This document shows, piece after piece, positions 1,198 through 64,000 of a stretch of 64,000 nt of DNA. This stretch comes from Mustelus asterias. Taxonomy: Eukaryota. Numbering within the stretch: the stretch's first letter is position 1; each line of letters opens with the position of its first letter. The stretch is taken from positions 124,001 to 188,000 of the forward strand of contig NW_027590123.1 of the NCBI RefSeq assembly GCF_964213995.1, written 5' to 3'. The translations under genes were made by a program, and so were the position numbers. A model generated the notes under the pieces. The model was not told the origin of the DNA. It did not search any database and saw only the letters and a program-made list of their open reading frames with translations.

Positions 1198-1430
1198 CCA
1201 CTCGTGAACTCGCTGGTGTACCAATAGCTGAGATGAAAGACTGAATCTCTTCTCACACACAGAACAGCTGAACGGTCTCTCCCCAGTGTGAATTCCCTGG
1301 TGTGTCTGCAGGCAGAATAACCGAGAGAACCCCTTTCCACACACAGAGCAGGTGAACGGTTTCCACCCAGTGTGAACTCGCTGGTGTGTCTGCTGGCTGG
1401 ATGAATCACTGAACCGCTTCCCACACAGAG
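1198..1430 (-). pseudogene. Out-of-frame C-terminal fingers 13-15 of ZNF-1
   Basis: [18 protein letters not shown]...LLVHQRVHE lies in another frame; the family stop TGA has become TGG. Confidence 0.8.
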
Positions 1431-2458
1431 TAGGTGAAAGGCCTCTCCCCAATGTGAACTCGCTGGTGCCTCCGCAGGTGGGATGACTGAGTGAATCCCT
1501 TCCCACACAGAGAGCAGGTGAATGGTTTCTCCCCAGTGTGAACTCGCTGGTGTGTCCGCAGGCTGGATGAAGTTATGAATGCCTTCCCACACTGAGAGCA
1601 GGTGAACGGTCTCTCCCCAGTGTGAACTTGCTGGTGTGTCCGCAGGCTGGATGACCGAGTGAATCCCTTTCCACACTGAGAGCAGGTGAACGGTCTCTCC
1701 CCAGTGTGAACTCGCTGGTGTGTCCGCAGGCTGGATGAAGCTCTGAATCCCTCCCCACACTGAGAGCAGGTGAAGGGCCTCTCCCCGGTGTGAACTCGCT
1801 GGTGTCTCCACAGGTTGGAGGACCGAGTGAATTCCTTCCCACACAGAGAGCAGGTGAACGGCCTCTCCCCAGTGTGAACTCGCTGGTGTGTCCGCAGGTT
1901 GGATGAAGCTCTGAATCCCTTCCCACACTGAGAGCAGGTGAACGGCCTCTCCCCAGTATGAACCCGCTGGTGTGTCCGCAGGCTGGAAAACTGACTGAAT
2001 CCCTTCCCACACTGAGAGCAGGTGAATGGCCTTTCCCCAGTGTGAACTCGCTGGTGTCTCCACATGTTCGAGAACCGAGTGAATCCCTCCCCACACTGAG
2101 AGCAGGTGAATGGCCTCTCCCCAGTGTGAACTCGCTGGTGTGTCCGCAGGCTGGACAACTGACTGAATCCCTTCCCACACTGAGAGCAGGTGAATGGCCT
2201 CTCCCCAGTGTGAACTCGCTGGTGTGCCTGCAGATTGGATAACTGAGTGAATTTGTTCCCACACTGAGAGCAGGTGAACGGCCTCTCCCCAGTGTGAACT
2301 CGCTGGTGTGTCTGCAGGCTGGAAGACAGAGTGAATCCCTTCCCACACTGAGAGCAGATGAACGGCCTCTCCCCAGTGTGACTGCGCCGATGAGCGTCCA
2401 GCTGAGATGGGGCTTTGTATCTCTTCCCACAATCCACACATTTCCATGGTTTCTCCAT
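1406..2458 (-). CDS. C2H2 zinc-finger protein ZNF-1 (12 intact fingers, then a frameshift)
   Basis: ATG in CACCATGG at 2458 (MEKPWKC); 12 CxxC...HxxxH units with TGERP linkers; 2-bp loss near 1425. Confidence 0.85.
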
Positions 2459-2978
2459 GGTGCAGGTGTCCTTGCCGCTCTCTTGGGTGGACAATCAGTT
2501 GATGCCTCGTCTAGGCACAACACCAGTATGGTCTCTCCTCACTGTGAATGGTGTGATATTTATTCAGGCTGTGTAACTGGTTAAAGCTCTTTAGTCAGTG
2601 CATTGGAACACTCTCACTCGAGTGTGGCAGTGTGTTGGTGCTTTTCCAGTCACACTGATGTTTGAATTTCTTTTCAAATCGACAGACTGGACAAACATTT
2701 CCCCTTCAAGATTCAAAGGCCGATGATATTTCACTCCTAAGGAATATGACTGCCAGATCTAGACTTGACATTTGAGATTTCAGCCTGTAATTCCTCGTTC
2801 AATATCCTGTAAAATGAGTTAGAAATAGAAATAGAAATTCAGAACAGACAATTCTAGTTTCTATGGAACATTCTTTCCTCTCTCATTGTGCAAAAGCTGT
2901 AAATCTCCATCCCACACACTCTCCCTCCATTCTCACTCTGCTGTATCTGCTGTATGTCTTATGGTCTTATGGTCTTAT

Positions 2979-3038
2979 CTAATATTCACCCTCCCGATTC
3001 TCCTGAAGGTGCTGATTGAAGCTGATTGACAGATCCAT
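2979..3038 (-). other. Conserved 19-codon micro-ORF (MDLSISFNQHLQENREGEY*)
   Basis: ATG in GAGCATGG; homologous copies at 8162-8221, 47730-47789 and 50011-50070. Confidence 0.6.
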
Positions 3039-3282
3039 GCTCACTGCTTCCTGTCCTGGACACAGAAATCATAAGAAATTGGAGCTGCAGTTGGCATTCA
3101 GCCCATCGAACTGCCTCAACCTTTGATTGAGAATTGGCTGATCTACCTCACACTATTTCCATAGGACCAATATTTCCCAAACTATCCCCCCAGGTTGCTC
3201 AATGCCTCAAAAGTTACCAATCTCTCTCTTGAAAATATTTGATGACTGAGGCTCCACAGTCCTCTGGAGCGCAGAATTCAAA

Positions 3283-3690
3283 CACTTTACTCACAGACAA
3301 TGGACCAAGCTCCGCGCAGCCACTGACACCAGGCCCGGACTCTGATTGGCTGGAGGACCAGCGTCCATCCGGTCCTCCACGCGTTGCCATTGGCTAATCT
3401 ACCGCATGTGGACAATGAGTGGGCGGAACCCGAGCCCACGTGAGGATGGGCGGGGCTTTGACCGCCAGCTGCGCTGACCTGCTGTCCAATCCGCAGTGTG
3501 CTGCTTCTGTAACCAGTGATATTGCTGCCAATGGGACACTGTGTGCTGGGAACGCCCCTCTGAGTCATTGTGACGGCACAATGGAGCCCTGCCTGAATCA
3601 GCCAATAGCAATCACTCTACTCCGCGGTGACGTCTCCGGGTTCAGGCGCGCGGACCCGGGAGCCCCGCCCCCACCCATTGTTCCCCCTGT
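3283..3690. promoter_or_regulatory. CpG-rich promoter/first exon of ZNF-1
   Basis: CpG-rich; ATTGG/CCAAT and GGGCGG boxes; dyad at 3351-3379; minus-strand GTGAGT donor at 3294-3289; reverse-complement homolog of ~49130-49500. Confidence 0.7.
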
Positions 3691-3957
3691 CTGTACATTC
3701 CACACATTGTTAGTCCAGTCAGATAGACATATATCTGTCTGGGAGCCTGCATGGAGATTTCCAGCTGTGTCCAGGACACAGAGAGCTGAAAGTGTCCAAT
3801 ACACATCTCTTTAGCCTGTCTTGATGCTCTCTCCACTCACATTGTTTGTATCTTAAAGACTTGATTAGTTGTAAGTTTTCGCATTCCAAGCATTATTCAT
3901 GTAAATTGAGTTTGTGTCTTTCTATGCCCTGTTTGTGAACAGAATTCCCACTCACCT

Positions 3958-4293: not shown

Positions 4294-4329
4294 ACCTGAA
4301 GAAGGGGCTTAAGGCTCCGAAAGCTTGTG
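4293..4329 (+). ncRNA. Minimal hammerhead ribozyme motif
   Basis: CTGAAGA-A-GGGGC-ttaag-GCTCC-GAAA-GC-TT-GTG. Confidence 0.6.
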
Positions 4330-7007: not shown

Positions 7008-7675
7008 TGTGAACTTGTTGGTGTCTCAGCAGCTGGGATGAAATTCTGAACCCTTTTTATACACTCAGCAGGTGGACAGTTTCTCCCCAGTGTAACCTCT
7101 CTGATGTCTCAGCAGGTGGGATCACTGAGTGAATTCCTTCCCACACTGAGAGCAGGTGAATGGCCTCTCCCCATGTGAATTCGCTGGTGTCTCTGCAGGC
7201 TGGATGAAGCTCTGAATCTCTTCCCACACTGAGAGCAGGTGAATGGCCTCTCCCCAGTGTGAACTCGCTGGTGTTTCCGCAGGTTGGATAACTGAGTGAA
7301 TCCCTTCCCACACTGAGAGCAGGTAAACGGCCTCTCCCCGCTGTGAACTCGCTGATGTGTCCGCAGGACGGATGACCGAGTGAATCCCTTCCCACACTGA
7401 GAGCAGGTAAACGGCCTCTCCCCGCTGTGAACTCGCTGGTGTCTCTGCAGGTCGGATGACCGAGTGAATCTCTTCTCACACTGAGAGCAGGTGAACGGTC
7501 TCTCCCCAGTGTGAACTTGCTGGTGTGCCCGCAGGACGGATGACTGAATGAATCCCTCCCCACACTGAGAGCAAATGAATGGCCTCTCCCCAGTGTGGTT
7601 GCGCCGATGAGCATCCAGCAGACATGGGGCTCTGTATCCCTTCCCACAGTCCGCACATTTCCATGGTTTCTCCAT
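7008..7675 (-). pseudogene. ZNF-2, truncated C2H2 gene (6 intact fingers, then a frameshift and stops)
   Basis: ATG at 7675; 1-bp deletion near 7172; downstream fingers contain TGA; upstream donor is decayed and the promoter is replaced by CR1/Tx1 sequence. Confidence 0.75.
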
Positions 7676-8161
7676 GGTGCAGGTGTCCTTACCTCTCTCT
7701 TGGGTGGACAATCAGCTGAAGCCTCGTCCACACACAGAACACGAGTACAGTCTCTCCCCACTGTGAATGGTGTGATATTTATTCAGGCTGTGTAACTGGT
7801 TAAAGCTCTTCAGTCAGTGCACTGGAACACACTGACTCGAGTGTGGCCATGTGTTGATGCTTTTTCAGTCAGATTGATGTTTGAAATCTTTTCAAATTTC
7901 CTTCCAGATTCAATGGCCGATGATATTCACGTCCCAAGGAATATGACTCTGCCAGATCTCGATGTGACGTTCGAGATTTTAGCCTGTGATTCCTCTTTCA
8001 ATATCCTGTAAAACAAGTTGACACAAGTCATCACTGTCAGTACAGGATCGAAATTCAGAACAGCCAATTCCAGTTTCTATGGAACATTCTTTCTCTCTCA
8101 TTCCCCAAAAGCTGTAAATCTCCATCCCACACACTCTCCCTCCATTCTCACTCTGCTGTAT

Positions 8162-8221
8162 CTAATATTCACCCTCCCAATTCTCCTGAAGGTGCTGATT
8201 GAGGCTGATTGACAGATCCAT
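8162..8221 (-). other. 19-codon micro-ORF (MDLSISLNQHLQENWEGEY*)
   Basis: Identical to 50011-50070. Confidence 0.6.
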
Positions 8222-8469
8222 GCTCACTGCTTCCTGTCCTGGACAGAGAGAGCTGAAAATTTCCATGCAAACTGCCAGACAGATCTATGCCCATATGACT
8301 GGAGTAAAAATGTGTGGAATATACCGACTGGATTCACTTCCTTTCCCTTCAGTTGCTGCAAGTCCCCAATTTCCCCCAGAATGAGAAAAGAAATGGAAAG
8401 GGGGAAACATTGATTTCCTCCCAGGTGTTGCCATCTTTTTAGGTCAAACCAAATAAACTAACTCAGATC

Positions 8470-8775
8470 AAAGACTATTTCCTCGGGTGGATGGAGCTAT
8501 TACAAGGGGGCATAACTATAGGGTTCGTGGTGGGAGATACAGGAAGGATATCAGAGGTAGGTTCTTTACGCAGAGAGTGGTTGGGGTGTGGAATGGACTG
8601 CCTGCAGTGATAGTGGAGTCAGACACTTTAGGAACATTTACGCGGTTATTGGATAGGCACATGGAGCACACCAGGATGATAGGGAGTGGGATAGCTTGAT
8701 CTTGGTTTCAGATAAAGCTCGGCACAACATCGTGGGCCGAAGGGCCTGTTCTGTGCTGTCCTGTTCTATGTTCTA
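8470..8775 (+). mobile_element. CR1 LINE 3' end
   Basis: TRGHNYRVRGGRYRKDIRGRFFTQRVVGVWNGLP followed by a TTCTATG tail. Confidence 0.8.
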
Positions 8776-8779
8776 AGTC

Positions 8780-9600
8780 AGGACAAAGTAAAAGGGGCAG
8801 CTCCCCAAAAAGGAGGGGGAACAGCCCGAACAGAAATCAAAATACAAAGGAAACTTAAAAACATCAAATTAAAATGTGATTATTAGGGTCAATAATGCAC
8901 CCCAACCCCTGCGGTGCCCAGCGGGCGCGGAAGTCGTCAACCGCGCCCGTGGACACCGCATGCTCCCTCTCCAGGGACACCTGGCCGCGAACGTAGCCGC
9001 GGTAGAGGGGAAGACAGTCAGGATGGACGGCCCCCTCGATCGCCCGCTGCCTGGACCGGTAAATGGTGCGTATCGCCAGGAGCAGGTTCACGAGGAGGTC
9101 GCCATCCCGACCCTCCCCTCTCCGCACCGGGTGTCCGTAGATCAGGAGCATGGGACTGAAGTGCAAACAAAACACCAATAAAAGGTTCTTTAGGAAAACA
9201 TAAAGGGAGTGCAGCCTAAGACACTCAACATAGACATGGTCCACGGACTCCACAAGGCCGCAGAAAGGGCAGTCTTCGGAGCCCGTGAACCAGTGAATCC
9301 TACGGTTGTGCGGAACTGCTGCATGCATCACCCTCCACCCCAGGTCCCCGACGTAATTGGGGGAGATCCCTCCATAGAGGGACCTCCAGCGGGGACCTCC
9401 GCTGCCCGGCGGCAACAAGGCCCGCCAAGGTGTATCCGGGCGACAGGCGAGGAGGCAGTAGTGGAGGGTGTGCAGCAGCAGCCCGCACAGGAAACGCCTC
9501 CGCGCAGTAGAAAAAGGCACGGAGGGCATTTCCGCGAGGCGGCTCAGGCTGTGGGGCACCTCACCCAGGCTTTGGGCCAATGTGGAATTCCGTCCAAACA
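8780..9600 (-). mobile_element. L1/Tx1-clade LINE 3' fragment (C-terminal zinc knuckle)
   Basis: ORF 8864-9580 contains W..LY...DLGWRVMH...CPFCGLVESVDHVYVEC; the same 3' end occurs at 57165-57360. Confidence 0.75.
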
Positions 9601-9624
9601 GGGGAACGCTCGGGCGGGATCAAG

Positions 9625-9840
9625 CCTCCAATTTTACTTTAAGCTCTCAAACTGTGGACTCCTCAGTCCAAACATGGGCTTCACTGCATTCTTGCTGAGG
9701 GATTTAAATGTTGGAAACACCCCTGGTTTCCAATGGTCCTCTAGGCTTCCAGTCCCACAGCTGGTTCACAGCTCCTGGTCCCACAAGTGGTGGCTTCCAA
9801 GCTAACTGCAGACTGTCCGCTGGAACCAGGTCATTGATTG
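9625..9840 (-). repeat. Unclassified dispersed repeat (possibly LTR-derived)
   Basis: Reverse complement of ~60800-60960 (GTGGGACCAGGAGCTGTGAACCAGCTG...GAGGAGTCCACAG). Confidence 0.5.
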
Positions 9841-13803: not shown

Positions 13804-14982
13804 TCACTCGTGAACTTGCTGGTGTCTCAGCAGGTGGGATGAAACTCTGAATCTCTTCCCACACTGAGAGCAGGTGAACGGCCTCTCCCCAGTGTGAACT
13901 CGCTGGTGTGCCCGCAGGTTGGATAACCGAGTGAATCCCTTCCCACACTGAGAGCAGGTGAATGGCCTCTCCCCAGTGTGAACTCGCTGGTGTGTCCGCA
14001 GGGTGGATAACCGAGTGAATCCCTTCCCACATTGAGAGCAGGTGAATGGTTTCTCCCCAGTGTGAACTCGCTGGTGTGCCCGCAGGTTGGATGACTGAGT
14101 GAATCCCTTCCCACACTGAGAGCAGGTGAACGGCCTCTCCCTAGTGTGAACCCGCTGGTGTGTCAGCAGGCTGGATGACCGCGTGAATCCCTCCCCACAC
14201 TGAGAGCAGATGAATGGCCTCTCCCCAGTGTGAACCCGCTGGTGAGCCCGCAGCTCGGATGACCGAGTGAATCCCTTCCCACACTGAGAGCAGGTGAACG
14301 GTCTCTCCCCAGTGTGAACTCGCTGGTGTATCCGCAGATCAGATGACCGAGTGAATCTCTTCCCACACTGAGAGCAGGTGAATGGTTTCTCCCCGGTGTG
14401 AACTCGCTGGTGTTTCTGCAGGCTGGATAACTGAGTGAATCCCTCCCCACACTGTGAGCAGGTGAACGGCCTCTCCCCAGTGTGAACTCGCTCGTGTGTC
14501 AGCAGACTGGATGACCGAGTGAATCCCTTCCCACACTGAGAGCAGGTGAATAGCCTCTCCCCAGTGTGAACTCGCTGGTGTGTCCGCAGCTCAGATAACT
14601 GAATGAATCCCTTCCCACACTGAGGGCAGGTGAATGGCCTCTCCCCAGTGTGAACTCGCTGGTGTCTCTGCAGGTTGGATAACTGAGTGAATCCCTTTCC
14701 ACACTGAGAGCAGGTGAATGGCCTCTCTCCAGTGTGAATTCGCTGGTGTCTCTGCAGGTGGGATGACTGAGTGAATCCCTTCCCACACTGAGAGCAGGTG
14801 AATGGCCTCTGCCCAGTGTGAACTTGCTGGTGTATCCGTAAGCTGGATAACTGATTAAATCCCTCCTCACACTGACAGCAGATGAACAGCCTCTCCCCAG
14901 TGTGGCTGCGCCGATGAGCTTCCAGCAGGGATGGGTATCTGTATCTCTTCCCACAGTCCACACATTTCCATGGTTTCTCCAT
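13804..14982 (-). CDS. C2H2 zinc-finger protein ZNF-3 (14 fingers)
   Basis: ATG at 14982 in CACCATGG; 392 aa = 14 x 28; ends HE-TGA; acceptor TTTTACAG with exon start at 15333. Confidence 0.9.
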
Positions 14983-15426: not shown

Positions 15427-16570
15427 AGAGGGTGGGTTCTCCCCCGCACATGCACAGCTTCCCCTCTCCCTCGCACATTTTGCAGTCCCGGGCCGGGGGG
15501 AGGGGGAGATCACTGAGCAGCTTCTCGCTCTGGCCGGAGCCGCCAGCCGGTTGCCTGGAAACCTTGGCTCGATGTGGTGCAGGGGGAGGGGAACAATGGG
15601 TGGGGGCGGGGCTCCCGGGTCCGCGCGCCCGGGCCTGCGCACTGGAACCCGGAGACATCACCGCGGAGCAGAGTGATTTCTATTGGCTGATTCAGGCAGG
15701 GCTCTATCGTGGCATCACAATGCGGAAGTTGGCCAATGAGCTTCAGAGTGAAACTTTGCTCTCCGATCACATTCCATTGTGACATCACACCCTCACCCAT
15801 TCCATTGTGACGTCACACCCTCACCCAGTCCATTGTGACGTCACACCCTCACCCAGTCCATTGTGACGTCACACCCTCACCCAGTCCATTGTGACGTCAC
15901 ACTCTCACCCATTCCATTGTGACGTCGCACCCTCACCCAGTCCATTGTGATGTCACACCCTCACCCATTCCATTGTGACGTCACACCCTCACCCAGTCCA
16001 TTGTGACGTCACACCCTCACCCATTCCATTGTGACGTCACACTATCACCCATTCCATTGTGACGTCACACCCTCACCCATTCCATTGTGACGTCAGGGCT
16101 TCCCTCTCCGATCACAATCCCTGCCGGCCTCCCACATGCAGCCTCAATGGCGGCAGTCAGCCCGGGTCTAACACTACAAGCTGCCGCTCCATTTGGTACA
16201 AAGGGGGGGACCGGGAAGTTCATTTCCGGGGTTTGGGTTTGAACAACATGTTTACAAAGTCTCTCCACCCACCCGCCACATTTATCATTCCCCGCACGCC
16301 GCCCTCTACCTCGTATTGATCTCGCTTCCAAGTTAAAACCGGCCGTCCGTCGCCATTACCCGCACTGCGCATGCTTCAGGTTCCGCCCCTCATTCCCTCT
16401 GATTGGTTGGAGGACCAGCCGCTCCCGTTCGGTCCTCCAGCCCCGCCCCCTCTTCCTATTGGTCGGGAGCTGCCGTCAATCAGTCCCCGGGCATTGTGAT
16501 GCGGAGCATGCGCAGTGTCATTGCTGGCCTTGGCGCTTGTTTGTCCCGGAGAAGCGGAGTCAGCGTTAGG
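15427..16570. promoter_or_regulatory. CpG-island bidirectional promoter between ZNF-3 (-) and ZNF-4 (+)
   Basis: CpG-rich; CCAAT and GC boxes; AATGGCGGC (YY1-like) at 16146; TGCGCATGC (NRF1-like) at 16366; dyad at 16408-16439. Confidence 0.75.
15771..16095. repeat. 28-bp minisatellite (~11.6 copies) carrying TGACGTCA (CRE) palindromes
   Basis: Unit A(T/G)TCCATTGTGACGTCACACCCTCACCC; 9 of 12 cores are perfect TGACGTCA. Confidence 0.95.
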
Positions 16571-17205: not shown

Positions 17206-17710
17206 CCACATCAAGAACTGAACCCAGACAGGAGAGGGAGGGAGAAAACTGGGAGTGGAGGGAAGAAATGGTGGAGATGTTGAGATGGGTTTGGATTTCA
17301 GTCCAGGGGAGGAGGTAGAGTGTGTGGGACGGGGATTTATAGATTTGGGGGAACAAGAGAGGAAAATATGTTCCAGAGAAACTATGAATTGTCTGTTCAG
17401 AATTTCTATCCTGCACTGACAGTGATGGTATTGGTAAACTGTTTTTGCAAGGTATTATGAAGCAGGATTTCCAGATGTGAAACTCAAACCAAACTTCACA
17501 TCAAGATCTGTTTCAGTGATTTGATTCGTCAGAAACTGAATATCGTCAGCCTTTGTCTCCAGAAGGAGAAATGTTTATTCTGTCTGCGGGCAAAGATTTC
17601 AAACATCAGTGTGACTGAAAAAGCACCTAGACACACACACCTGTGAGTTTCCAATGTGCTGAATGTGGAAAGTGGTTTAAAAAGTCTGAAAAATAATCAC
17701 ATCATTCTCA

Positions 17711-19021
17711 GTGAGTAGTGACCCGACTCATATTCTGTGTAAACGTGGCTTCAACTCATCATCCAACCTGGAGTCACACGAGGATACCCGCTCCACAGAG
17801 AAACCATTGAAATGTGGGGACTGTGGGAGGGGATTCAATTACCCGTCCGAATTGGATATTCATCGTCGCATTCACACTGGAGAGAGGCCGTTCACCTGCT
17901 CTGAGTGTGGGAAAGGATTTGCTTACTCATCCAGCCTCTATACACACCGGCGTGTTCACACCGGTGAGAGGCCATTCGCCTGCCTCGAATGTGGGAGGGG
18001 ATGTCATGCTATATCAAGCCTCCTGATTCACCGGCAGGTTCACTCCGATCAGAGACTGTTTCAGTGTTCTGAATGTGAGAAAAGCTTTAAAAGCACAAAG
18101 GACCTCCTGAGACACCAGCGCACTCACATGGCGGTGAGACCGTTCACCTGCTCAGTGTGTGGGAAGGGATTCACTCAGTCATCCCACCTTCTGACACACC
18201 ATCTTGTTCACACTGATCAGAGACCATTTCAATGTTCTGACTGTGAGAAGAGATTTAAAAGTAAAAATGATTTACAAGTCCATCAGCGCACTCACACTGG
18301 GGAGAAGCCATTCACCTGCTCCGTGTGTGAGAGGAGATTCGGACGTTTATCCCAGCTGCAAACACACCAGCGAGTTCACTCTGATAAGAGACCATTTCAG
18401 TGTTCTGACTGTGAGAAGAGCTTTAAAAGTAAACAGGATTTGGTGACACACCAGCGAGTTCACACTGGGGAGAAACCGTTCACCTGCTCGGTGTGTGGGC
18501 TGGGATTCACCCATTCATCCCACTGTCTGAGACACCAGCGAGTTCACACCGGGGAGAAGACATTTATTTGCTCTGTGTGTGGGAAGGGATTCACTGATTC
18601 GCCCCACCTTCTGATACACGAGCGAATTCACACTGGGGAGAAACCCTTCGCTTGCTCCACATGTGGGAAACGATTCACTCAGCCACCCCAGCTCATTGCA
18701 CATCAACTGGTCCACACTGATCAGAGACCTTTTAAGTGTTCTGACTGTGAGAAAAGTTTTAAAAGCACGAAGGACCTGCTGAGACACCAGCAAATTCACA
18801 CTGGGGAGAGATCATTCACCTGCTCCATGTGTGGGAAAAGGTTCACTCAGTCATCCCACCTGCTGAGACACCAGCAGATTCACACAGGAGAGAGATCGTT
18901 CACCTGCTCCGTATGTGGGAAGAGATTTGCTCGGTCAGCCAATCTGCTGAGACACCAGCAAGTTCACAAGTCACTGCAGGGATTGGATTCTGCTGTTGCT
19001 GCTAACCCCATGCAGGACTGA
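17711..19021 (+). CDS. C2H2 zinc-finger protein ZNF-4 (14 fingers; no AUG before codon 140)
   Basis: Open 436-codon frame; the family start TMEKP reads STEKP; the family stop has become TCA, adding a short tail. Confidence 0.7.
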   Translation: MSSDPTHILCKRGFNSSSNLESHEDTRSTEKPLKCGDCGRGFNYPSELDIHRRIHTGERPFTCSECGKGFAYSSSLYTHRRVHTGERPFACLECGRGCHAISSLLIHRQVHSDQRLFQCSECEKSFKSTKDLLRHQRTHMAVRPFTCSVCGKGFTQSSHLLTHHLVHTDQRPFQCSDCEKRFKSKNDLQVHQRTHTGEKPFTCSVCERRFGRLSQLQTHQRVHSDKRPFQCSDCEKSFKSKQDLVTHQRVHTGEKPFTCSVCGLGFTHSSHCLRHQRVHTGEKTFICSVCGKGFTDSPHLLIHERIHTGEKPFACSTCGKRFTQPPQLIAHQLVHTDQRPFKCSDCEKSFKSTKDLLRHQQIHTGERSFTCSMCGKRFTQSSHLLRHQQIHTGERSFTCSVCGKRFARSANLLRHQQVHKSLQGLDSAVAANPMQD

Positions 19022-35800: not shown

Positions 35801-35819
35801 CCACATACACTGGGCAGTT

Positions 35820-44339: not shown

Positions 44340-44835
44340 CTCGACAACTTGCCCCCTCCAAAGATGGCGGCCACGTTGCAGCCATGTTCCACATTATCCC
44401 CGTTGTACATTGGCCCCAATAAAGATGGCGGCCGTTAACCCGGACCGATCACTCGGAGCTGGAGACCCACTCAGTGCAGCTGGAGGAACCTGGAAGCTCT
44501 TTTTCGAGGATTGCGGTGACACAACATGTTTAGGAAACATCTCCGCCCGGTAGCTGGATCCATCGCTCCCTCCCATCCACTATTTTGTCCTAGATATTGT
44601 GGATCATAACAATCACCTCGCCAACCGCCATTAACCACACTGCGCATGCTTCACTCCCAGCCCGGCCCCGCCCCTCATTCACTCCCGGCTCCGCCCCTCA
44701 TTCACTCCCATTGCTTGGAGGACCAGCCGCTCCCGCGCGGTCTTCCAGCCCCGCCCCGCCCCGCCCCTCTCTCTCTATTGGTCCGAAGCTGCCGTCAATC
44801 AGCCAGACATTGTGACGATTTCAGATGGTGAGAGT
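44340..44835. promoter_or_regulatory. CpG promoter homologous to 26630-27110 (probably drives ZNF-7)
   Basis: Two AAGATGGCGGC YY1 sites (44361, 44422); TGCGCATGC at 44641; GC boxes; dyad at 44716-44747. Confidence 0.7.
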
Positions 44836-45854: not shown

Positions 45855-47288
45855 CTACTCTGTGTGAACTCGCCAGTGTTTCCGCAGGGAGGATGAATCA
45901 CTGAATATCTTCCCACATTGAGAGCAGGTGAACGGTTTCTCTCCAGTGTGGATTTGCTGGTGTGTCTGTAGTTTGAAAAGCCAAGAGAAGACCTTCCCAC
46001 AGTGAGAGCAGGTGAATGGTCTCTCCCCAGTGTGGATTCGCTGGTGTATCTGCAGGTTGGATAACTGAGTGAATCCCTTCCCACATTGAAAGCAGGTGAA
46101 TGGTCTCTCCCCAGTGTGAATGCGCTGGTGTATTTGCAGAGCGGATGAATCACTGAATCCCTTCCCACACTGAGAGCAGGTGAATGGCCTCTCCCCAGTG
46201 TGAACCCGCTGATGTCTCAATAGATTGGCTGACATGGTGAATCCCTTCCCACACACAGAGCAGGTGAATGGCCTCTCCCCAGTGTGAACTCTCTGGTGTG
46301 TCAGCAGGTGGGATGAGAGAGGGAATCTCTTCCCACACTGGGAGCAGATAAATGGCTTCTGCCCAGTATGAACTTGCTGGTGTCTCTGCAGGGTTGATGG
46401 ATCAGTGAATGCCTTCCCGCACACAGAGCAGGTGAACGGCCTCTCCCCGCTGTGAACTCGCTGGTGTCTCCACAGGTGGGATGAATCACTGAACCGCTTC
46501 CCACACTGAGAGCAGGTGAATGGCCTCTCCCCAGTGTGAACTCGCTGGTGTACCCGCAGGTGGGATGAATAACTGAATCCCTTCCCACACTGAGAGCAGG
46601 TGAACGGTTTCTCCCCAGTGTGAACTCGCCGGTGAGTCTGCAGGGAGGATGACTGAGTGAATCCCTCCCCACACTGAGAGCAGGTGAACGGTTTCTCCCC
46701 AGTGTGAACCCGCTGGTGTATCCGCAGGTGGGATGACTGAGTGAATCCCTTCCCACACTGAGAGCAGGTGAACGGTTTTTCCCTGGTGTGAACTTGCTGG
46801 TGTATCAGCAGGGAGGATGAATCACTGAATCCCTTTCCACACTGAGAACAGGTGAACGGTTTCTCCCCGGTGTGAACTCGCTTGTGGGACTGTAGGAAGG
46901 ATAGCCGAGTGAATCCCTTCCCACACTCAGCGCACGTGAATGGCCTCTCCCCAGTGTGAACTCGCTGGTGTGTCTGCAGGTGGGATGACTGAGTGAATCC
47001 CTTCCCACACTGAGAGCAGGTGAATGGTCTCTCTCCAGTGTGAACTCTCTTGTGGCACTGTAGGAAGGATAGCCGAGTGAATCCCTTCCCACACTGAGAG
47101 CAGGTGAACGGCCTCTCCCCAGTGTGAACTCGCTGGTGTGTCAGCAGGTGGGATGACTGAGTGAATCCCTTCCCACACTGAGGGCAGGTAAATGGCTTCT
47201 CCCCAGTGTGAATGCGCTGATGGATTTCCAGTTGTGACGAAAACCTGAATTCCTTCCCACAGTCCCCACATTTCCATGGTTTCTCCAT
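45855..47288 (-). CDS. C2H2 zinc-finger protein ZNF-8 (17 fingers; 18th lost by a nonsense change)
   Basis: CACCATGG at 47288; TAG in the last linker; a decayed finger and the ancestral HK-TGA (45774-45776) follow. Confidence 0.9.
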
Positions 47289-47729
47289 GGTGCTGGTGTC
47301 CTTGTGTCTCTCCAAGTTGGACGATCAGTTGAAGCTTCATCCACACACAGAACGCAGGTACAGTTGCTCGTTTTTGTGAATGGTGTGATATTTCTTCAGG
47401 CTGTGTCACTGGTTAAAGCTCTTTCCACAGTCAGTTCACTGGAACACTCTCACTCGGGTGTGTGTGTGTCTCGGTGCTTTTCCAATCACACTGATGTTTG
47501 AAATCTTTTGAAACCGACAGACCGTGACTCTGTCAGATCGAGATGTGACATTTGAGATTTCTGTCTGTGATTCCTCCTCTTCTGATATCCTTTAAAAACA
47601 ATTTACAAAAAACATCACAGTCAGAACAGACAATTCTCGCTTCTATGGGAACATCCTTTCCTCTGTCATTAATGAAAATCTGTAAATCTCCATCCCACAC
47701 ATTGTCCCTCCATTCTCACGCTGCCGGAT

Positions 47730-47789
47730 CTAACATTCAGCCACCCAACACTCCTGATGGTGCTGATTCAGGATGAATGACAGATCCAT
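47730..47789 (-). other. 19-codon micro-ORF (MDLSFILNQHHQECWVAEC*)
   Basis: Diverged copy with the same start, length and stop. Confidence 0.55.
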
Positions 47790-48153
47790 GCTCACTGCTT
47801 CCTGTCCTGGACAGCGAGGTCGGAACAAATAGAGTTGTCCTATCTAGAGAGGCTAAATAGTCTGGGTCTGTATTCCTCGGAGTTTAGAGGAGTGAGGATG
47901 ACTTTATTCAAACATATAATTTGATTGATTTGATTCATTATTGTCACACATATTAACATACAGTGAAAAGTATTGTTTCTTGCGCACTATACAGACAAAG
48001 CATACCATTCATAGAGAAGGAAACAAGAGAGTGCAGAATGTAGTGTTACAGTCTGTAGAGAAAGGTGTAGAGAAAGAGCAACCTAATGCAAGGTAAGTCC
48101 ATTCAAAAGTCTGACAGCAGCAGGGACAGAAGCTGTTCTTGAGTCGCTTGACA

Positions 48154-48501: not shown

Positions 48502-48849
48502 AAGTTAAAGGGCCAGTCATTTAAAACTGAGGTGCGGTGAAATTTCTTCTCACAGAGGGTGGTGAATCTCTGGAATTCTCTGCTCCAAAGGATGGTAGAG
48601 GCTGAATCATTAGAAATATTTAAAATGGAGGTGGATAAATATTTGATAGATTGAGGAATAGAGGGCGATGGGGAAATGGCTCACAGAAGGAGGCCGGCAT
48701 TGATGAGCCAGGATTGTACTGAATGGCAGGGTCGCTTGAAGGGCCTGGTGGCCTCTCCTGCTTCTATTTCTTGTGATCAGTTGCTGCAAGTCCCCAATTT
48801 CCCCCAGAATGAGAAAAGAAATGGAAAGGGGGAGAAAATAAAGTGTTTT

Positions 48850-49600
48850 ACTCACAGATGTTGGTCTCTTTTAAGGTCAAACCAAATAAACAAACAGGAG
48901 GAAGTTTCAGTCAGTCTGAAGCGCAATCTTCTTTCACACAAAGCCCGTCCTGTGATTGGCTGGAGGACCAGAGTCCTTCCGGTCCTCCAATTCTTCCCAT
49001 TGGTCAACACCTCAGCGTGAAGGTCAGGGGGCGGGCTCTCCCCTGCACATGCGCGGTTCCCCCTCTCCCTCAGGGCCGGGTGCCTGGAAACCTTGGCTCG
49101 AGGAGGTGCCGGGGGAGGGGGCACAAAGGGTGGGGACGGGGCTCCCATGTCCGGGCGTCCGGGCCTGCGCACTGGGATCCAAGGATGTTGGCGCGGAGCA
49201 GAGTGATTGCTGTTGGATTGAGTCGTCACAATGACTCCGAGGGGCGTTCCCAGCACACAGTGTCCCATTGGCAGCAATATCACTGGTTACAGAAGCAGCA
49301 CACTGCGGATTGGGCACCAGCTCAGCGCGGCTGGCGGTCAAAGCCCCGCCCACCCCCACGTGGGCCCGGGTTCCGCCCCCTTATTGTCTACATGCGGCAG
49401 ATTGACCAATGGCAATGCGTGGAGGACCAGATCAGCCCTGGTCCTCCAGCCAGTCAGAGTCTGGGCCTTGTGTCAATGGCTGCACGAATGTTCCTCCATT
49501 GTTTGTCCAGAAAACTGCTGCCCATCCTCCTCCTCTCTCTGAACAAAGATTGAGCTTCAGATAGATTCAAACTTCCTCCTGTGGCCAACATCTGTGAGTA
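48850..49600. promoter_or_regulatory. Bidirectional CpG promoter and first exons of ZNF-8 (-) and ZNF-9 (+)
   Basis: Mirror-image GTGAGT donors (48855-48850 on -, 49594-49599 on +); two opposed CCAAT-dyad modules (48961, 49420); GC boxes. Confidence 0.8.
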
Positions 49601-50010
49601 AAACACTTTCTTTTTGCATTCTGGGAAAAATTGGGGACTTGCAGCAACTGAAGGGAAAGGAAATGAATCCAGTCTGTACATTTCACACATTTTTAGTCCA
49701 GTGATTTGATTTATTATTGTCAAGTGTATTAACATACAGTGAAAAGTATTGTTTCTTGCGCACTATGCAGACAAAGCATACCGTACAGAGGGAAGGAAAG
49801 GAGAGAGTGCAGAATGTAGTGTTACAGTCACAACTAGGGTGCAGAGAGAATCGAGGTTTCAAAGCATAGAACAAGTGTCAGAGATAAAATTAGATGGTAT
49901 GCTTGGCACAGCTTGCAAGAAGTCACCTCGCTCCGGTGCCATCTTGAGTATATCTGTCTGGCAGCCTGCATGGAGATTTTCAACTGTGTCCAGGACAGGA
50001 AGTAGTGAAC

Positions 50011-50070
50011 ATGGATCTGTCAATCAGCCTCAATCAGCACCTTCAGGAGAATTGGGAGGGTGAATATTAG
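50011..50070 (+). other. 19-codon micro-ORF (MDLSISLNQHLQENWEGEY*)
   Basis: ATG in AACATGG; identical to 8162-8221. Confidence 0.6.
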
Positions 50071-50505
50071 ATACAGCAGAGTGAGAATGGAGGGAGAGTG
50101 TGTATGGGATGGAGATTTAGAGCTTCTGGGGATTGAGAATTGTTAGTTCTGAATTTCTATCCTGTACTGACCGTGATGGCATTTGTAAACTACATTTACA
50201 GGATATTGTGACAGGAGCATTTACTGACAGAAATCTCAGACGTGACGTTCTAGATTTGACAGAGTCACTTGATTCCTTGGGACCTGAATATCATCGGTCT
50301 TTGAATCTAGAAGGAGGAATGTTTGCCCAGTCTCACCCAAGTGAGAGTGTTCCAGTGCACTAACTGTGGAAAGAATATCAACCAGTTACAGAGGCTGAAA
50401 AACCATCACACCATTCATAGCGGGGACAGACTGTACATGTGTTTGTTGTGTCGATGAGGCTTCAACTGTTAAACTGACCTGGATTGATACAGCGAGACCT
50501 AAAAC

Positions 50506-51432
50506 ATGAAGAAACCGTGGAAATGTGGGGACTGTGAGAAGACATTCAAAGCTCCATCAGAGCTGGAAAACCATTGGCGCATTCACACTGGAGAGAGGCC
50601 ATTCATCTGCTCTCAGTGTGGGAAGGGATTCACTCAGTCAACCACCCTGCAGAGACACCAGCAAGTTCACACTGGGGAGAGGCCATTCATCTGCTCTCAG
50701 TGTGGGAAGGGATTCACTCAGTCAACCACCCTGCAGAGACACCAGCAAGTTCACACTGGGGAGAGGCCATTCACCTGCTCTCAGTGTGGGAAGGGATTCA
50801 CTCTGTCATCACACCTGTTGAGACACAAGCAAGTTCACACAGGGGAGAGGCCATTCACCTGCTCTCAGTGTGGTAAAGGATTCAGTAATTCATTCAACCT
50901 TCAGACACACCAGCGAGTTCACACTGGGGAGAGACCATTCACCTGTTCTCAATGTGGGAAGCGATTCAGTGATTCATCCAACCTGCAGACACACCAGCGA
51001 ATTCACACTGGGGAGAGACCGTTCATCTGCTCTCAGTGTGGGAAGGGATTCACTCTTTTATGCAACCTGTTAAGACACAAGCGAGTTCACACCGGAGAGA
51101 AGCCATTCACCTGCTCTCATTGTGGGAAAGGATTCAGTGATTCTTCCGGCATGCAGACCCACCAGCGAGTTCACACTGGGGAGAGACCATTCATCTGCTC
51201 TGACTGTGGGAAGGGATTCACTCTGTCATCCCACCTGTTGAGACACCAGCGAGTTCACACCAGTGAGTGGCCCTTCTCCTGCTCTCGGTGTGGGAAGGGA
51301 TTTAATGATTCATCCAACCTGGAGAGACACCAGCGAGTTCACACTGGGGAGAGGCCATTCACCTGCTCTCAGTGTGGGAAGGGATTCACTCTTTTATCCA
51401 TCCTGTTGAGACACAAGCGAGTTCACAAGTGA
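50506..51432 (+). CDS. C2H2 zinc-finger protein ZNF-9 (11 fingers)
   Basis: MKKPWKC start; 308 aa; exon start at 50202 after TACTGAC...TTTACAG. Confidence 0.9.
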
Positions 51433-57130: not shown

Positions 57131-57164
57131 ATTTTCAACAAATTCTGGTCTAGGATCTGAGCAT

Positions 57165-57360
57165 TCGGTGTCCCAGGGCACCATTAACACCTTCTGTGTC
57201 TGCTGGGCACCGCAGGGAGACTGGGGTGCATTCTTGACCCCTTTAATCACATTTGATTTGATGCTTTCCTTTCCTTTCCGCTTTGTCTTTTGTTTTGGGT
57301 GGTTGCCCTCCTTTTGGGAGATGCCCATTTTAATTTGTTCCCTCGTTAATTTGATTTAGT
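57165..57360 (+). mobile_element. Tx1-like LINE 3' end
   Basis: WAPQG.. motif and a 3' UTR homologous to the reverse complement of 8780-8960. Confidence 0.6.
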
Positions 57361-58030
57361 GTATTTGGTTGGCCAAAAAGATTGAATCTAAACATAAGTT
57401 TTTAGTCTAGCAGTTTACATCTAGATTTTCAGGGCTGCATCCTCGACAAGAAGCAGTGAGCATGGAGCTGTCAATCAGCATGAATTGTCACTCTCTGGGG
57501 AATTGGGAGGCTGAACATTGGGACAGCAGAGTGAGAACAGAGAGGGAATCTGTGGGATGGAGATTTACAACTTTACTTAGAATGAGAGAGGAAAGAATGT
57601 TCCACAGAAACTAGAATTGACTGTTCCGAATTTCTATTCCAACTGACGGTGATGACTTTTGTAAACTCCTTTTGCAGGACATTAGGAAGCAGAAAATTCA
57701 AAGCAGACGTCATGTCAAGACCAACCAGAATCACTCACTTCACTAGGAGCTGAATATCATCGGCCTTTGACTCTCAAAGGATAAATGTTTGTCTGTTCAG
57801 TTTGCTTCAAAAGATTTGAAACACCAGTGTGATTGGAAAAGCACCAAGACCCGCTGCACACACCCGAGTGAGAGTGTTCCAGTGAACTGACTGTGGAAGA
57901 GTTTAAAGTGGTGACAGAGTCTGTTAAAACCTCGCACCATTCACAATGCGGAGAGATAGTACATGTGTTTTGTGTTGATGAGGTTTTAGCTGATCCTTGA
58001 ACTTGGGAGAGGCACAAGGACACCTGCAGT

Positions 58031-58537
58031 GTGGAGAAACGGTGGAAATGTGGGGACTGTGGGAGGGGATTTTGTACACCCTCTGCACTGGAAACTCATC
58101 AACGCAGTCATGTCGGAGAGAGGCCGTTCACCTGCTCGGACTGTGGGAAGGGATTTGCGCAGCTGTCCAACTTACTGAGACATCAGCGAGTTCACACTGG
58201 GGAGAGACCGTTCACCTGTTCTGACTGTGGGAAGGGATTCAGTGATTCATCCAACCTGCAGTCACACCAGCGAATTCACACTGGGGAGAGGCCGTTCACC
58301 TGCAATGAGTGTGGGAAGGGATTCAGTCATTTATCTAATTTGCTGAGGCACCAGCGAGCTGACAGCAGGGAGAGAACTGCCACCTGCTCTCAGTGTGAGA
58401 AACGATTCCGTGATTCGTACACCCTGCGCTTACACCAGCGAGTTCACACTGGGGAGAGGCCATTCACCTGCTCCGACTGTGGTAAAGGATTCACTCAGTT
58501 ATCCAACCTGCTGAGACACCAGCAAATCCATAAGTGA
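58031..58537 (+). pseudogene. ZNF-10 (6 fingers; start changed to GTG; finger 4 lacks its last His)
   Basis: CAGTGTGGAGAAAC in place of CACCATGGAGAAAC; HQRADS; no CpG promoter directly upstream. Confidence 0.6.
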
Positions 58538-61124: not shown

Positions 61125-61897
61125 CAGGACTTACTCAGTTAATGGTAGGGCGTTGGGGAGAGTTATAAAAAAAGAGAGATCTAGGGGTACATGTTCATTG
61201 CTCCTTGAAAGTGGAGTCACAGGTGGACAGAGTGGTGAAGAAGGCATTCGGCATGCTTAGTTTCATCAGTCAGAACATTGAATACAGGAGTTGGGACGTC
61301 TTGTTGAAGTTGTACAAGACATTGATAAGGCCACACTTGGAATAGGGTGACCAGAACTGTGTACAGTTCTGGTCACCCTATTATAGAAAGGACATTATTA
61401 AACTAGAAAGAGTGCAGAAAAGATTTACTAGGATGCTTCCAGGACTTGATGGATTGAGTTATAAGGAGAGGCTGGATAGACTGGGACTTTTTTCTCTGGA
61501 GTGTAGAAGGCTGAGGGGTGATCTTATAGAGGTCTATAAAATAATGAAGGGCATAGATCAGCTAGATTGTCAATATCTTTTCCCAAAGGTCGGGGAGTCT
61601 AAAACTAGAGGGCATACGTTTAAGGTGAGAGGGGAGAGATACAGAAGTTTCCAGAGGGGCAATTTTTTCACACAGAGGGTGGTGAGTGTCTGGAACAAGC
61701 TGCCAGAGGTAGTAGTAGAGGCGGGAAACTTTGTCTTTTAAAAAGCATTTAGACAGTTACATGGGTAAGATGGGTATAGAGAGAGATGGGCCAAATGCGG
61801 GCAATTGGGACTAGCTTCGGAGTTTTAAAAAAAAGGGCGGTTATGGACAAGTTGGGCCGAAGGGCCTGTTTCCATGCTGTAAACCTCTATGACTATA
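61125..61897 (+). mobile_element. CR1 LINE 3' fragment
   Basis: RFTRMLPGL...RRLRGDLIEVYK...FFTQRVV. Confidence 0.85.
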
Positions 61898-62489
61898 TTA
61901 AATACAAGGGAACTCTGGTTGGTGGCAAGATTTAAAATGTAGAACTGGGTTCATACCATAAATCTTTATAAACTAAAGTGCTGGTTTTTAATATTGTTTT
62001 ATAAATAAATTTTGGTCTTGTTTAAAAATGTGGAATCTTGGAGCATAATTCTTTGTTAATCACTGGCTATTTGAATTTCTCAATCGTTAACAATCCAGAC
62101 TGGTGTCATCACAATACACAGCAACATATTTCACAATGAATCGAAGAAAAAATATGATTTTCCTTATTTTGTACAAAGTGTTACATGACAAGACAGCCTC
62201 TTCTAGGATCCCCACTTAATTTCTCAATTTAAGCACTTCTTTTCATGAAACAATCTGATAATTGATTATGAAAAATGGAACAAATTGTATCCCTACTAAA
62301 GCAGGAAGTCCATCGCCCGGCACAGAGGGTAATTAGGGATTTCTGCCATGGACCAATTGACAGGGATTCTACCCTCCAACCATCTGAAGTGAATTCTTTC
62401 CCTGAATCGTCCAGGCCAGTGCAGTTATCAACTTGTAGTTTGGCTGATCAGCTGAGATTTTCTGCAGCATTTCATCGGTCACCGTGTGA

Positions 62490-63030
62490 TTCCTTTCAGA
62501 GCCCATCACTGAAAGGACTTTCAGCTGCCGTGTTCATGACCAGAATACTCATGTTTTCACACACGTCTCCAAACTCATCATTAACAAATTCCCCTTCATT
62601 ATCAGTCAGAAACTTAGCTGGTGCCCCAGGTCCAGTCCCTATCCATTTCTCCATGACTTTGTCTCGAATCACCCTTTTGTCCTTGACATGGGGCGACACG
62701 GGAGCACAGTGGTTAATACTGCTGATTCACAGTGCCAATGGCCTGGGTTCGATTCCCGGCTTGGGTCACTGTCTGTGTGGAGTTTGCACGTTCTCCCTGT
62801 GTCTGCGCGGGTTTCCTCCGGCTGCTCTGTTTTACTCCCACATTCTTAAAGACGTGTTGGTTAGGTGCGTTAACCCGAACAGGTGCCAGACTGTGGCAAC
62901 TAGGGGACTTTCACAGTAACTTCATTGCAGTGTTAATGTAAGCCTTGCTTGTGACTAATAAATAAACTTTAAAACTTTAAGCGTATTATTGGAGAAAGAC
63001 TAAATCGAGTTACCATGTCTTTAAGGTTCT
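62490..63030 (-). mobile_element. LTR-retrotransposon integrase core relic (Copia-like), split by a SINE
   Basis: DMVTRFS / WIGTGPGAPAKFLTDNEGEF...TAAESPFSDG. Confidence 0.6.
62690..62980 (+). mobile_element. V-SINE with an alternative tail
   Basis: tRNA head and V-domain, with a tail ending AATAAATAAACTTT. Confidence 0.75.
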
Positions 63031-63626
63031 GAATAAAAATATTTCTTGTCTTTGTCTTGTACCTTTAGACCCACTGCAACTTCCTCATGAGCTAAAGGAA
63101 GGATGTAATGGTAGCCTCCGATACCTTTCACACATTCCACACTTTGCGCTAATCTGTCCAAGAGCCTCATGTACTCTTCATCATCACCCTGCTTCTTTTA
63201 GCAGGATTTTTAATCTTTTTTAAAAATGGGCGAGTAGTTGGTTGTGCAGTTTTAAGACAATTTGCATTTTTTCCTCTGGTTCTTTTCACCTGAAGAATTA
63301 ACAACCCTTTCTAATTGGAGATAGAAATCAGTGGAACCTCTCAGCCACTGAATTGTAGATTTTGCATCAGAGATCAATTAAGCATTGATGGAAAAGTTCA
63401 TAATTTTATTGTGAACAAGTTCCTGTTGAGAGTTCTTGAATTATGTGTGAAGATCACAGATGGTGCATTTAAAAAGGGACACTGCAGCCCAAAGGTCAAT
63501 GACATCTCCAGAATATTAAACTCCAGACTGTTATGTGGTTTGTTGATATCCACAGAAACAAACCAAATATTGTCAGACTGTCAGTCCAGGAACAGCAACA
63601 ATAACAGCAGAATCTAACCTCTGGAT

Positions 63627-64000
63627 TCACTTATGAATGTGCTGGTGTGTCAGCAGGTGGGATGACCGTGTGAATGCCTTTCCACACTCAGAGCAGATGA
63701 ATGGCCTTTCCCCAGTGTGAACTTGCTGATGTGCTTTGAGGTCAGATGACTGCCTGAACCTCTTTCCACAGGAAGTACAGCTGAATGGTTTCTCCTCAGT
63801 GTGAACTCGCTGGTGTCTTAGAAGGTGGGATGACCGAGTGAATCCCTTCCTACACACAGAGCAGATGAATGGCCTCTCCCCAGTGTGAATTTGCTGGTGT
63901 TCATCGAGCTCAGATGACTGCCTGAACCTCTTTCCACAGGAAGTACAACTGAATGCCTTCTCCACAGTGTGAATTCTCTGGTGTGTGCAAAGTCCCGAAG
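63627..64000 (-). CDS. C2H2 zinc-finger protein ZNF-11, 3' part (continues beyond the window)
   Basis: 4 complete fingers plus a partial one; the frame stays open to the window edge; HK-TGA followed by the shared 3' module. Confidence 0.85.

What the first reader, a model, noticed from the sequence alone, without database searches (positions are those of the whole stretch)
1406..64000. Modular cluster of effector-less C2H2 ZNF genes amplified as head-to-head pairs
Seen: 11 finger arrays with no N-terminal domain in the coding exon. Three divergent pairs (ZNF-3/4, 5/6, 8/9) share CpG promoters, and two promoters have lost their partner. Scaffold residues are near-invariant while recognition-helix residues vary. 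Known: KRAB-ZNF clusters repress TEs in tetrapods, and KRAB-ZFPs are not reported from cartilaginous fish. Inference: this is an independent, rapidly turning-over chondrichthyan ZNF system, possibly TE-targeting, whose duplication unit is promoter + micro-ORF + fossil leader + array + 3' module.
Basis: partly seen in the sequence, partly recalled or inferred. Interest (0 to 1): 0.78.

Follow-up and report, generated by a model that had tools for sequence, protein, structure and literature searches.

The report
Shark finger-only zinc-finger gene cluster
This stretch of shark DNA holds 11 of more than 2,000 related zinc-finger gene copies whose old front end has decayed, so they likely make bare DNA-binding finger arrays with no silencing domain; they spread mainly as multi-gene blocks, and whether they police transposons is untested.

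Summary
In detail: 11 tandem C2H2 arrays, three divergent pairs on CpG-rich promoters, and two promoters with a gene on one side only. In 0 of 47 class I genes is the frame open from the splice acceptor to the array, 37 of 47 share one stop 19 codons upstream, and a Kozak ATG opens MEKPWK (2,128 exact genome matches). The same start appears in sawshark and bamboo-shark gene models.

The proposed duplication unit is only partly right. Recent copies are blocks of 55-60 kb holding eight or nine genes, head-to-head excess is modest (23 vs 18.5 expected), partners swap, and the 'micro-ORF' sits in an optional 128-nt element conserved without codon periodicity. Scaffold codons are under purifying selection (ω 0.54). 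Recognition codons have ω 1.1-1.3 with an interval spanning 1, so positive selection is not shown. Expression and TE targeting are untested.

Shark ZNF expansions are already counted in Wells 2023. I found no paper on this architecture. The scan reported this family before on other DNA of this genome.

The parts
1406..2458 (-). Z1: class I ORF MEKPWK..., 12 fingers, frameshifted tail (2 more fingers at 1204-1350 out of frame)
2459..2806 (-). Z1 fossil finger leader (acceptor to ATG), frame closed
2898..3056 (-). Z1 copy of the conserved element with the 19-codon micro-ORF
3290..3700 (-). Orphan type-A CpG promoter and predicted non-coding exon 1 of Z1 (donor near 3290; palindromic GGAGGACC..GGTCCTCC core at about 3350)
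   Evidence: exon status inferred
7109..7675 (-). Z2: 6 fingers, frameshifted end; likely pseudogene
8111..8238 (-). Z2 copy of the 128-nt conserved element (micro-ORF 8221-8162)
8440..9630 (-). LINE 3' fragments (Tx1-like label from earlier notes, plus a CR1-like piece) in place of Z2 exon 1 and promoter; donor degenerate
13804..14982 (-). Z3: class I ORF, 14 fingers; lacks the conserved element
15460..16560 (.). Z3/Z4 composite promoter: partial type-A arm, 28-bp tandem repeat with TGACGTCA (15770-16095), type-B arm
17690..19021 (+). Z4: 14-finger open frame with no ATG at the cap (first Met at residue 147 of the frame); likely truncated or non-coding
24846..25883 (-). Z5: class [13 protein letters not shown]..., 11-12 fingers
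26630..27110 (.). Z5/Z6 type-B CpG promoter (YY1-like, NRF1-like, GC-box and CCAAT motifs; motif names recalled)
30510..31436 (+). Z6: class I ORF, 11 fingers, preceded by a stop-bearing fossil finger (30288)
36844..37713 (-). Z7: class II ORF, 9 canonical fingers; paralogue of Z5
44340..44830 (.). Orphan type-B promoter, the nearest upstream of Z7; + strand partner absent
45855..47288 (-). Z8: class I ORF, 17 fingers
47289..47589 (-). Z8 fossil leader
47680..47806 (-). Z8 diverged copy of the conserved element
48849..49601 (.). Z8/Z9 type-A promoter: two inverted homologous arms (48933-49007 vs 49476-49402, 76%), each with its own palindromic core and a predicted non-coding exon 1 ending CAACATCT|GTGAGT
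49994..50121 (+). Z9 conserved element; micro-ORF MDLSISLNQHLQENWEGEY at 50011-50070
50202..50505 (+). Z9 fossil leader
50506..51432 (+). Z9: class I ORF MKKPWK..., 11 fingers
58001..58537 (+). Z10: 5-6 fingers, GTG at the start position, no promoter core nearby; likely pseudogene
63627..64000 (-). Z11: 3' part of an 8-finger class I gene that starts beyond the window

Best explanation
The window is a slice of a very large shark tandem C2H2 zinc-finger family (over 2,000 start-site matches) whose ancestral N-terminal fingers decayed into a closed leader, so the genes likely make finger-only proteins that are predicted to bind DNA, likely repeats and transposons, by occupancy or through finger-docked partners rather than a KRAB-type domain. 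Shown from sequence: the closed leader, the Kozak ATG at the cap finger, purifying selection on the scaffold, finger gain and loss within arrays, pseudogenisation, and spread as multi-gene segmental blocks within a promoter-dense cluster where divergent pairs are modestly enriched. Inferred: non-coding exon 1 spliced to the leader exon (about 80%); translation from MEKPWK/MEGK, likely damped by upstream ATGs (70%); sequence-specific DNA binding by most intact members (75%); binding biased to TEs (45%); actual repression of TEs (30%).
For: The frame from acceptor to array is closed in 47 of 47 class I genes. A stop sits at codon -19 in 37 of 47. Kozak -3 purine holds in 46 of 47 and +4 G in 45 of 47, and 0 of 47 have a candidate acceptor between the stop and the ATG. 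There are 2,128 exact matches to the class I start and 184 to one class II start. The same start is in gene models of Pristiophorus and Chiloscyllium, and the N-terminal extensions in four other shark models share no domain. Scaffold ω is 0.54 (family bootstrap 0.46-0.82), versus 1.1-1.3 at recognition positions. There are 417 distinct fingerprints among 778 fingers. Blocks of 55-60 kb are duplicated on C109 and C157, as in young mouse KZFP clusters (PMC11952569 section 6). ZNF number correlates with retroelement number across metazoans independently of accessory domain (PMC10547256). The finger-only human ZNF146/OZF binds L1 (PMC8896011).
Against: No direct splice, start-site, translation or binding data were obtained. 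Recognition-position ω is not significantly above 1 (95% intervals 0.39-1.47 and 0.60-1.58), and the excess comes mostly from one homogeneous family and two pairs, where finger shuffling inflates differences (array pS 0.062-0.075 vs flank 0.032). Many copies are broken: 26 of 76 arrays on C91 and 9 of 18 on C71 have a stop or frameshift among fingers, and 5 of 13 Z8 copies carry a stop. In 4 of 10 class II genes the frame is open back to about the acceptor, and 30 of 87 arrays fell outside both classes and were not tested for frame closure. OZF loss did not derepress L1 in HEK293 cells. 46 of 47 leaders carry upstream ATGs, so the main ORF may be poorly translated.
Confidence: 0.6

Rival explanations
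1. Mostly neutral expansion: recombination between segmental duplicates and LINEs multiplies the genes, selection only keeps the fingers folded, and binding specificity drifts without a target.
For: Recognition-position ω is compatible with 1. About a third to a half of arrays are broken. Copying is in large blocks that include LINE debris; LINE RT-like fragments cover at least 13.1 of 64 kb. Finger number in recent copies varies from 8 to 25.
Against: Scaffold ω is about 0.5. The Kozak start and cap finger are kept across distant shark orders. A promoter core and a 128-nt element are conserved. Wells 2023 found no such correlation for olfactory receptors as a control family.
Confidence: 0.22
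2. The proteins act on something other than TEs: RNA binding, satellite or ZNF-cluster heterochromatin, or host promoters, including cross-regulation through the shared promoter palindrome or the 128-nt element.
For: Every promoter in the window carries a GGAGGACC..GGTCCTCC palindrome, and an element found in 1,155 exact copies is conserved at all codon phases. Both are candidate binding sites. C2H2 fingers also bind RNA and protein (own knowledge).
Against: Canonical TGE[RK]PF linkers and variable -1, +3 and +6 residues fit double-stranded DNA reading with diverse targets.
Confidence: 0.12
3. A hidden upstream effector exon (KRAB-, FiNZ- or KRAB-like) is spliced onto the arrays, making these ordinary effector-ZNF genes.
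For: KRAB-ZNF and FiNZ genes keep the effector in a separate upstream exon (PMC10547256). The conserved element has splice-like signals and one open frame (TGSSEH...). In 4 of 10 class II genes the frame is open to about the acceptor.
Against: The leader frame is closed in 47 of 47 class I genes with no alternative acceptor. The element has no codon periodicity (0.953/0.944/0.947), and its peptide matched only 2 unnamed short ORFs among 11 candidates. The predicted type-A exon 1 has no ATG in Z1 or Z8, and in Z9 its ATGs stop before the donor. PF01352 had no match in G000 (weak, because the control genomes gave none either).
Confidence: 0.06

Closest known systems
KRAB zinc-finger (KZFP) gene clusters of sarcopterygians
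   Same: Clustered tandem C2H2 arrays in one 3' exon, birth-and-death turnover, variable fingerprints, expansion by multi-gene segmental blocks (PMC11952569 section 6).
   Different: No KRAB exon. The leader is closed, so no upstream domain can be fused through the main acceptor. TRIM28 recruitment and TE binding are untested.
FiNZ-ZNFs of cyprinids (PMC10547256) and KRAB-like ZNFs of ray-finned fish (PMC11603059)
   Same: Lineage-specific, KRAB-less, hundreds of clustered genes in a fish genome.
   Different: FiNZ and KRAB-like genes keep an upstream-exon domain and have knock-down or co-IP support. Here the front end decayed, and positive selection was not shown.
Human ZNF146/OZF (PMC8896011)
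   Same: A finger-only protein with no identifiable effector; it binds LINE-1.
   Different: OZF is a single conserved gene. This is a family of thousands with rapid turnover and a start codon inside a former linker. OZF loss did not derepress L1 in HEK293.

Membership tests
KRAB-ZNF | KRAB domain (PF01352) in an upstream exon, in frame with the array | tested here: not met
   No PF01352 match in G000 (weak control); leader frame closed in 47 of 47 class I genes; none in 9 upstream ORFs
KRAB-ZNF | Tandem C2H2 array with TGEKP-type linkers in a single 3' exon | tested here: met
KRAB-ZNF | Clustered, expanding by segmental duplication, many pseudogenes | tested here: met
KRAB-ZNF | Positive selection on base-contacting residues | tested here: inconclusive
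   ω 1.13 (0.39-1.47) and 1.29 (0.60-1.58); counting method, no site model
KRAB-ZNF | Binds TEs and represses through TRIM28/SETDB1 | not testable with these tools
   needs ChIP/CUT&Tag and knock-down
FiNZ-ZNF / KRAB-like ZNF of ray-finned fish | Conserved acidic N-terminal domain exon in frame with the array | tested here: not met
   frame closed; no conserved N-terminus among six shark models with or without extensions; no FiNZ profile was scanned
Finger-only ZNF (OZF-like architecture) | ORF made only of C2H2 fingers | tested here: met
   8 of 11 window genes have an ATG 6 or 15 codons before the first finger; 9 of 11 arrays scanned, and the listed Pfam hits lie on the finger arrays with no KRAB, SCAN or BTB among them (best 25 shown)
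Finger-only ZNF (OZF-like architecture) | Expressed and translated as such | tested here: inconclusive
   only contigs of guessed-RNA runs of other organisms were laid; no splice joint was listed and the table was cut

The most novel reading that the evidence does not exclude
Sharks run a transposon-defence repertoire of more than 2,000 bare finger arrays that silences without KRAB, FiNZ or any separate effector, using the W-K-C-x-D-C cap finger as a dock or sheer occupancy. The repertoire is co-regulated through a shared promoter palindrome and a 128-nt uORF element, and is counter-attacked by LINEs that home into the genes' first exon.
Probability: 0.2. Interest if true: 0.75.

Novelty: new variant of a known kind. 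Interest (0 to 1): 0.45.

Why it matters
Cartilaginous fish lack KRAB-ZNFs yet carry some of the largest tandem-ZNF counts among vertebrates. If thousands of finger-only proteins control transposons there, an effector domain is not needed for this kind of defence, and sharks give an outgroup for how KRAB and FiNZ systems arose. The shared start sequence (2,128 exact copies) makes a family-wide knock-down like the zebrafish FiNZ morpholino test feasible. If the neutral rival holds, the family would instead caution against reading ZNF-TE correlations as function.

Tried and rejected
Rfam at gathering scores: 0 matches in the window. The 128-nt element as a structured RNA: rejected, z = +1.65, 196 of 200 shuffles fold as well. 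The element as a coding micro-exon: no codon-phase bias in 38 copies, its acceptor AG is not kept in all copies, and no named protein carries its peptide (weak search).

Expression: no RNA holder was listed for the stretch. Contigs of four guessed-RNA runs of other organisms, laid at 80% on 48700-50640, gave no GT-AG joint among the 15 joints shown (118 not shown). Some contigs cross the element or the acceptor unspliced and two run from the leader into the array; this is not used as evidence. Z8's splicing could not be examined.

A genome-wide count of the -19 stop by exact pattern was too narrow (8 vs 0 matches). An 'invariant' cap finger is not seen: its recognition positions are as variable as internal ones, and 11-12 cap fingers were too few for ω. 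No window protein is in the protein collection by exact sequence (0 of 4). A paper on ZNF head-to-head enrichment was not found. No binding-motif predictor was available, so TE enrichment was not computed. No structure or complex prediction was run.
Full report
What is there. A six-frame scan finds 11 C2H2 arrays in the order Z1-, Z2-, Z3-, Z4+, Z5-, Z6+, Z7-, Z8-, Z9+, Z10+, Z11-, separated by LINE and SINE debris (LINE RT-like fragments cover at least 13.1 kb). Eight genes have an ATG 6 codons (class I, MEKPWK) or 15 codons (class II, MEGK; Z5, Z7) before the first finger. Z4 and Z10 have lost that ATG, Z1 and Z2 end in frameshifts, and Z11 starts outside the window. Nine arrays were scanned against Pfam: the listed hits lie on the finger arrays, with no KRAB, SCAN or BTB among the best 25 shown. 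Nine ORFs from promoter and upstream regions match nothing. Named homologues of the gene starts are from sharks, which is the basis for calling this a shark genome.

Scale. The cluster continues: 76 arrays of three or more fingers in 864 kb of contig C91 and 18 in 200 kb of C71. Genome-wide there are 2,128 exact matches to the Kozak-plus-MEKPWKC start, 184 to one class II start and 1,155 to a 35-nt piece of the upstream element; reversed-pattern controls gave 0, and some matches may be haplotigs. Wells et al. 2023 (PMC10547256; I read the abstract, introduction, first results sections, passages and eight supplement rows; supplement files 3-5 were not searched) already list 475-3,586 tandem-ZNF ORFs for eight cartilaginous fish assemblies, but the main text never mentions sharks.

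Is it effector-less? Of 87 regional arrays with four or more fingers, 47 are class I, 10 class II, 9 begin with a recognisable fossil finger and 21 are other; only class I was tested fully. Upstream of the ATG lies about 300 nt of decayed finger-coding sequence behind a conserved acceptor (AG in 39 of 47). The frame from that acceptor to the array is closed in 47 of 47, and 37 of 47 share a stop at codon -19. The ATG has a -3 purine in 46 and a +4 G in 45. None has a pyrimidine-tract acceptor between stop and ATG. So an upstream domain cannot be spliced on through the normal route. The predicted type-A exon 1 ends in CAACATCT|GTGAGT or a variant and is non-coding in Z1, Z8 and Z9. In class II, 4 of 10 frames reach back to about the acceptor, but they read unrelated peptides. 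Automated models from Pristiophorus and Chiloscyllium start at MEKPWK, and extensions in the Mustelus, Cetorhinus, Scyliorhinus and Heterodontus models share no domain. The start therefore predates the split of these shark orders (their relationships are recalled). One ray model lacks the cap. PF01352 found nothing in the genome, but the control rang nowhere either. The whale-shark paper reports KRAB families lost in cartilaginous fishes (PMC8455134, passages), and PMC11603059 (passages) finds only PRDM9 there. No transcript evidence was obtained, so exon structure is inferred.

Head-to-head pairs. The three pairs and two orphan promoters are real. All carry a palindromic GGAGGACC..GGTCCTCC core. 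On C91 this core occurs in 16 of 23 head-to-head, 13 of 29 tandem and 2 of 23 tail-to-tail intervals; on C71 in 3 of 6, 3 of 5 and 1 of 6 (81 and 27 matches against 3 and 1 in reversed controls, each palindrome usually counted twice). The pairs are not one cassette. Z8/Z9 has two inverted homologous arms (type A, likely an old inverted duplication), Z5/Z6 has type B, and Z3/Z4 joins a partial A arm, a 28-bp TGACGTCA tandem repeat and a B arm. Head-to-head adjacency is only modestly enriched: 23 of 75 vs 18.5 shuffled (p = 0.03) on C91 and 6 of 17 vs 4.0 (p = 0.05) on C71, with shorter gaps (median 4.1 kb vs 6.1 and 7.8 kb on C91). Of 20 other copies of promoter A, 11 have divergent arrays on both sides within 10 kb (9 of 12 close, 2 of 8 distant). 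The recent duplication unit is larger: window 13,000 to beyond 64,000 recurs colinearly at mostly 93-98% on C109 and C157, and the Z4-Z6 part also on C145 and C650. Five copies cannot all be haplotypes. Z8 with its promoter sits beside a different partner on C71 and two other contigs. This block mode is what PMC11952569 (abstract and section 6) describes for mouse KZFP clusters.

The 'micro-ORF'. MDLSISLNQHLQENWEGEY lies in a 128-nt element just upstream of the leader acceptor. Among 38 copies picked by the element, median pairwise identity is 95%, against 80% for the next 107 nt and 70% for the leader. Among genes picked by their start codon, 24 of 48 carry it in full, at a median 98% to the Z2 copy versus 86% for the leader. 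Conservation is equal at all three codon phases and extends beyond the stop, and the element does not fold. It is best read as a nucleotide-level regulatory element, or a conversion hot spot, that contains a uORF; it is optional. In the window it is in Z1, Z2, Z8, Z9 and, degenerate, Z10.

Selection. Entropy is high at -1, +3 and +6 and low in linkers. In 17 families of recent paralogues (178-188 reference fingers; finger pairs differing by more than 8 or 12 nt dropped; the six positions fixed by my detection pattern excluded), ω is 0.54 for scaffold positions (family bootstrap 0.46-0.82 and 0.48-0.75). At -1, +2, +3 and +6 it is 1.13 (0.39-1.47) or 1.29 (0.60-1.58); an uncorrected count gave 0.62-1.13. 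The arrays are thus not neutral as a whole, but positive selection is not shown. The Z8 family alone gives 0.92, and the excess comes from the homogeneous Z3 family and two pairs. Array synonymous divergence is twice the flank divergence and finger number varies (Z8 13-17, Z3 8-25), pointing to unequal crossing-over. Five of 13 Z8 copies carry a stop.

Mechanism. Most likely (0.6) this is a birth-and-death repertoire of finger-only DNA-binding proteins. They would be transcribed from CpG-rich, often divergent promoters and translated from a start recruited inside an old linker, likely at low level because 46 of 47 leaders contain upstream ATGs. Zebrafish ZNF mRNAs are also damped by ribosome collision (PMC11620358, abstract only). 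TE-biased binding (0.45) rests on analogy: the metazoan-wide correlation and OZF binding to L1, although OZF loss did not derepress L1 (PMC8896011, passages). Rivals are near-neutral expansion (0.22), non-TE roles (0.12) and a hidden effector exon (0.06).

Novelty. Searches of PMC and bioRxiv returned no paper describing this shark architecture. Subscription papers such as Thomas and Schneider 2011 and Imbeault 2017 were not read, and unread supplements may bear on the point. It works like KRAB/FiNZ clusters in evolution but is not a member of either. The scan has reported the same family on at least six other windows of this genome; my reading was formed before I saw them, though I reuse their wording 'finger-only'. 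What this window adds is the block-duplication test, the modest size of the head-to-head excess, the non-coding character of the micro-ORF element and the null result on positive selection. Following two earlier notes, I also found that 8 of 15 copies of a LINE 3' end run directly into type-A exon 1 sequence. Verdict: real, a new variant of a known kind, function untested; interest 0.45.

Noticed in passing
window 8440-9630 (-), about 48864-48895 (-), 57160-57390 (+); G000:C91 97577, 313912, 432578-462665; C109:1167943: The 3' end of a LINE (called Tx1-like in earlier notes; class not tested here) ends in or next to exon 1 of type-A ZNF genes. 8 of 15 hits run directly into exon-1 sequence. 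Z2's promoter is replaced by it, Z8's exon 1 holds a ~30-nt tail remnant absent from Z9, and Z10 has an old copy.
   Followed up: partly
window 15770-16095: 28-bp tandem repeat, 11.6 copies, most with a TGACGTCA (CRE-like, name recalled) palindrome, inside the Z3/Z4 promoter.
   Followed up: no
window ~3350, ~16406, ~26996, ~44714, ~48958, ~49418: The palindrome GGAGGACC-N~14-GGTCCTCC is shared by both promoter types; no factor assigned.
   Followed up: partly
window 49994-50121 and 1,155 exact partial copies in G000: Optional 128-nt element, 95-98% conserved between otherwise diverged genes, with a strong-context 19-codon uORF and splice-like signals; role unexplained.
   Followed up: partly
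window 53463-54313: CpG-rich repeat with several 92-94% copies on C71 and an ORF-like stretch resembling a GIY-YIG/Penelope-type element (label recalled); absent from the C109 and C157 copies of the block, so likely a recent insertion.
   Followed up: no
first finger of class I genes, second finger of class II: A distinct cap finger (W-K-C-x-D-C, Pro at +1 in 67%, Glu at +5 in 56% of 84 first fingers) is kept across shark orders, but its recognition positions vary.
   Followed up: partly
G000:C91 about 560,000-795,000: A gap of about 240 kb without finger arrays inside the cluster.
   Followed up: no
P0020 (named gene model) and window 11804-12502: An automated shark model fuses a ZNF array to a CR1-like LINE ORF matching the window's; likely an annotation artefact or exonisation.
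   Followed up: no
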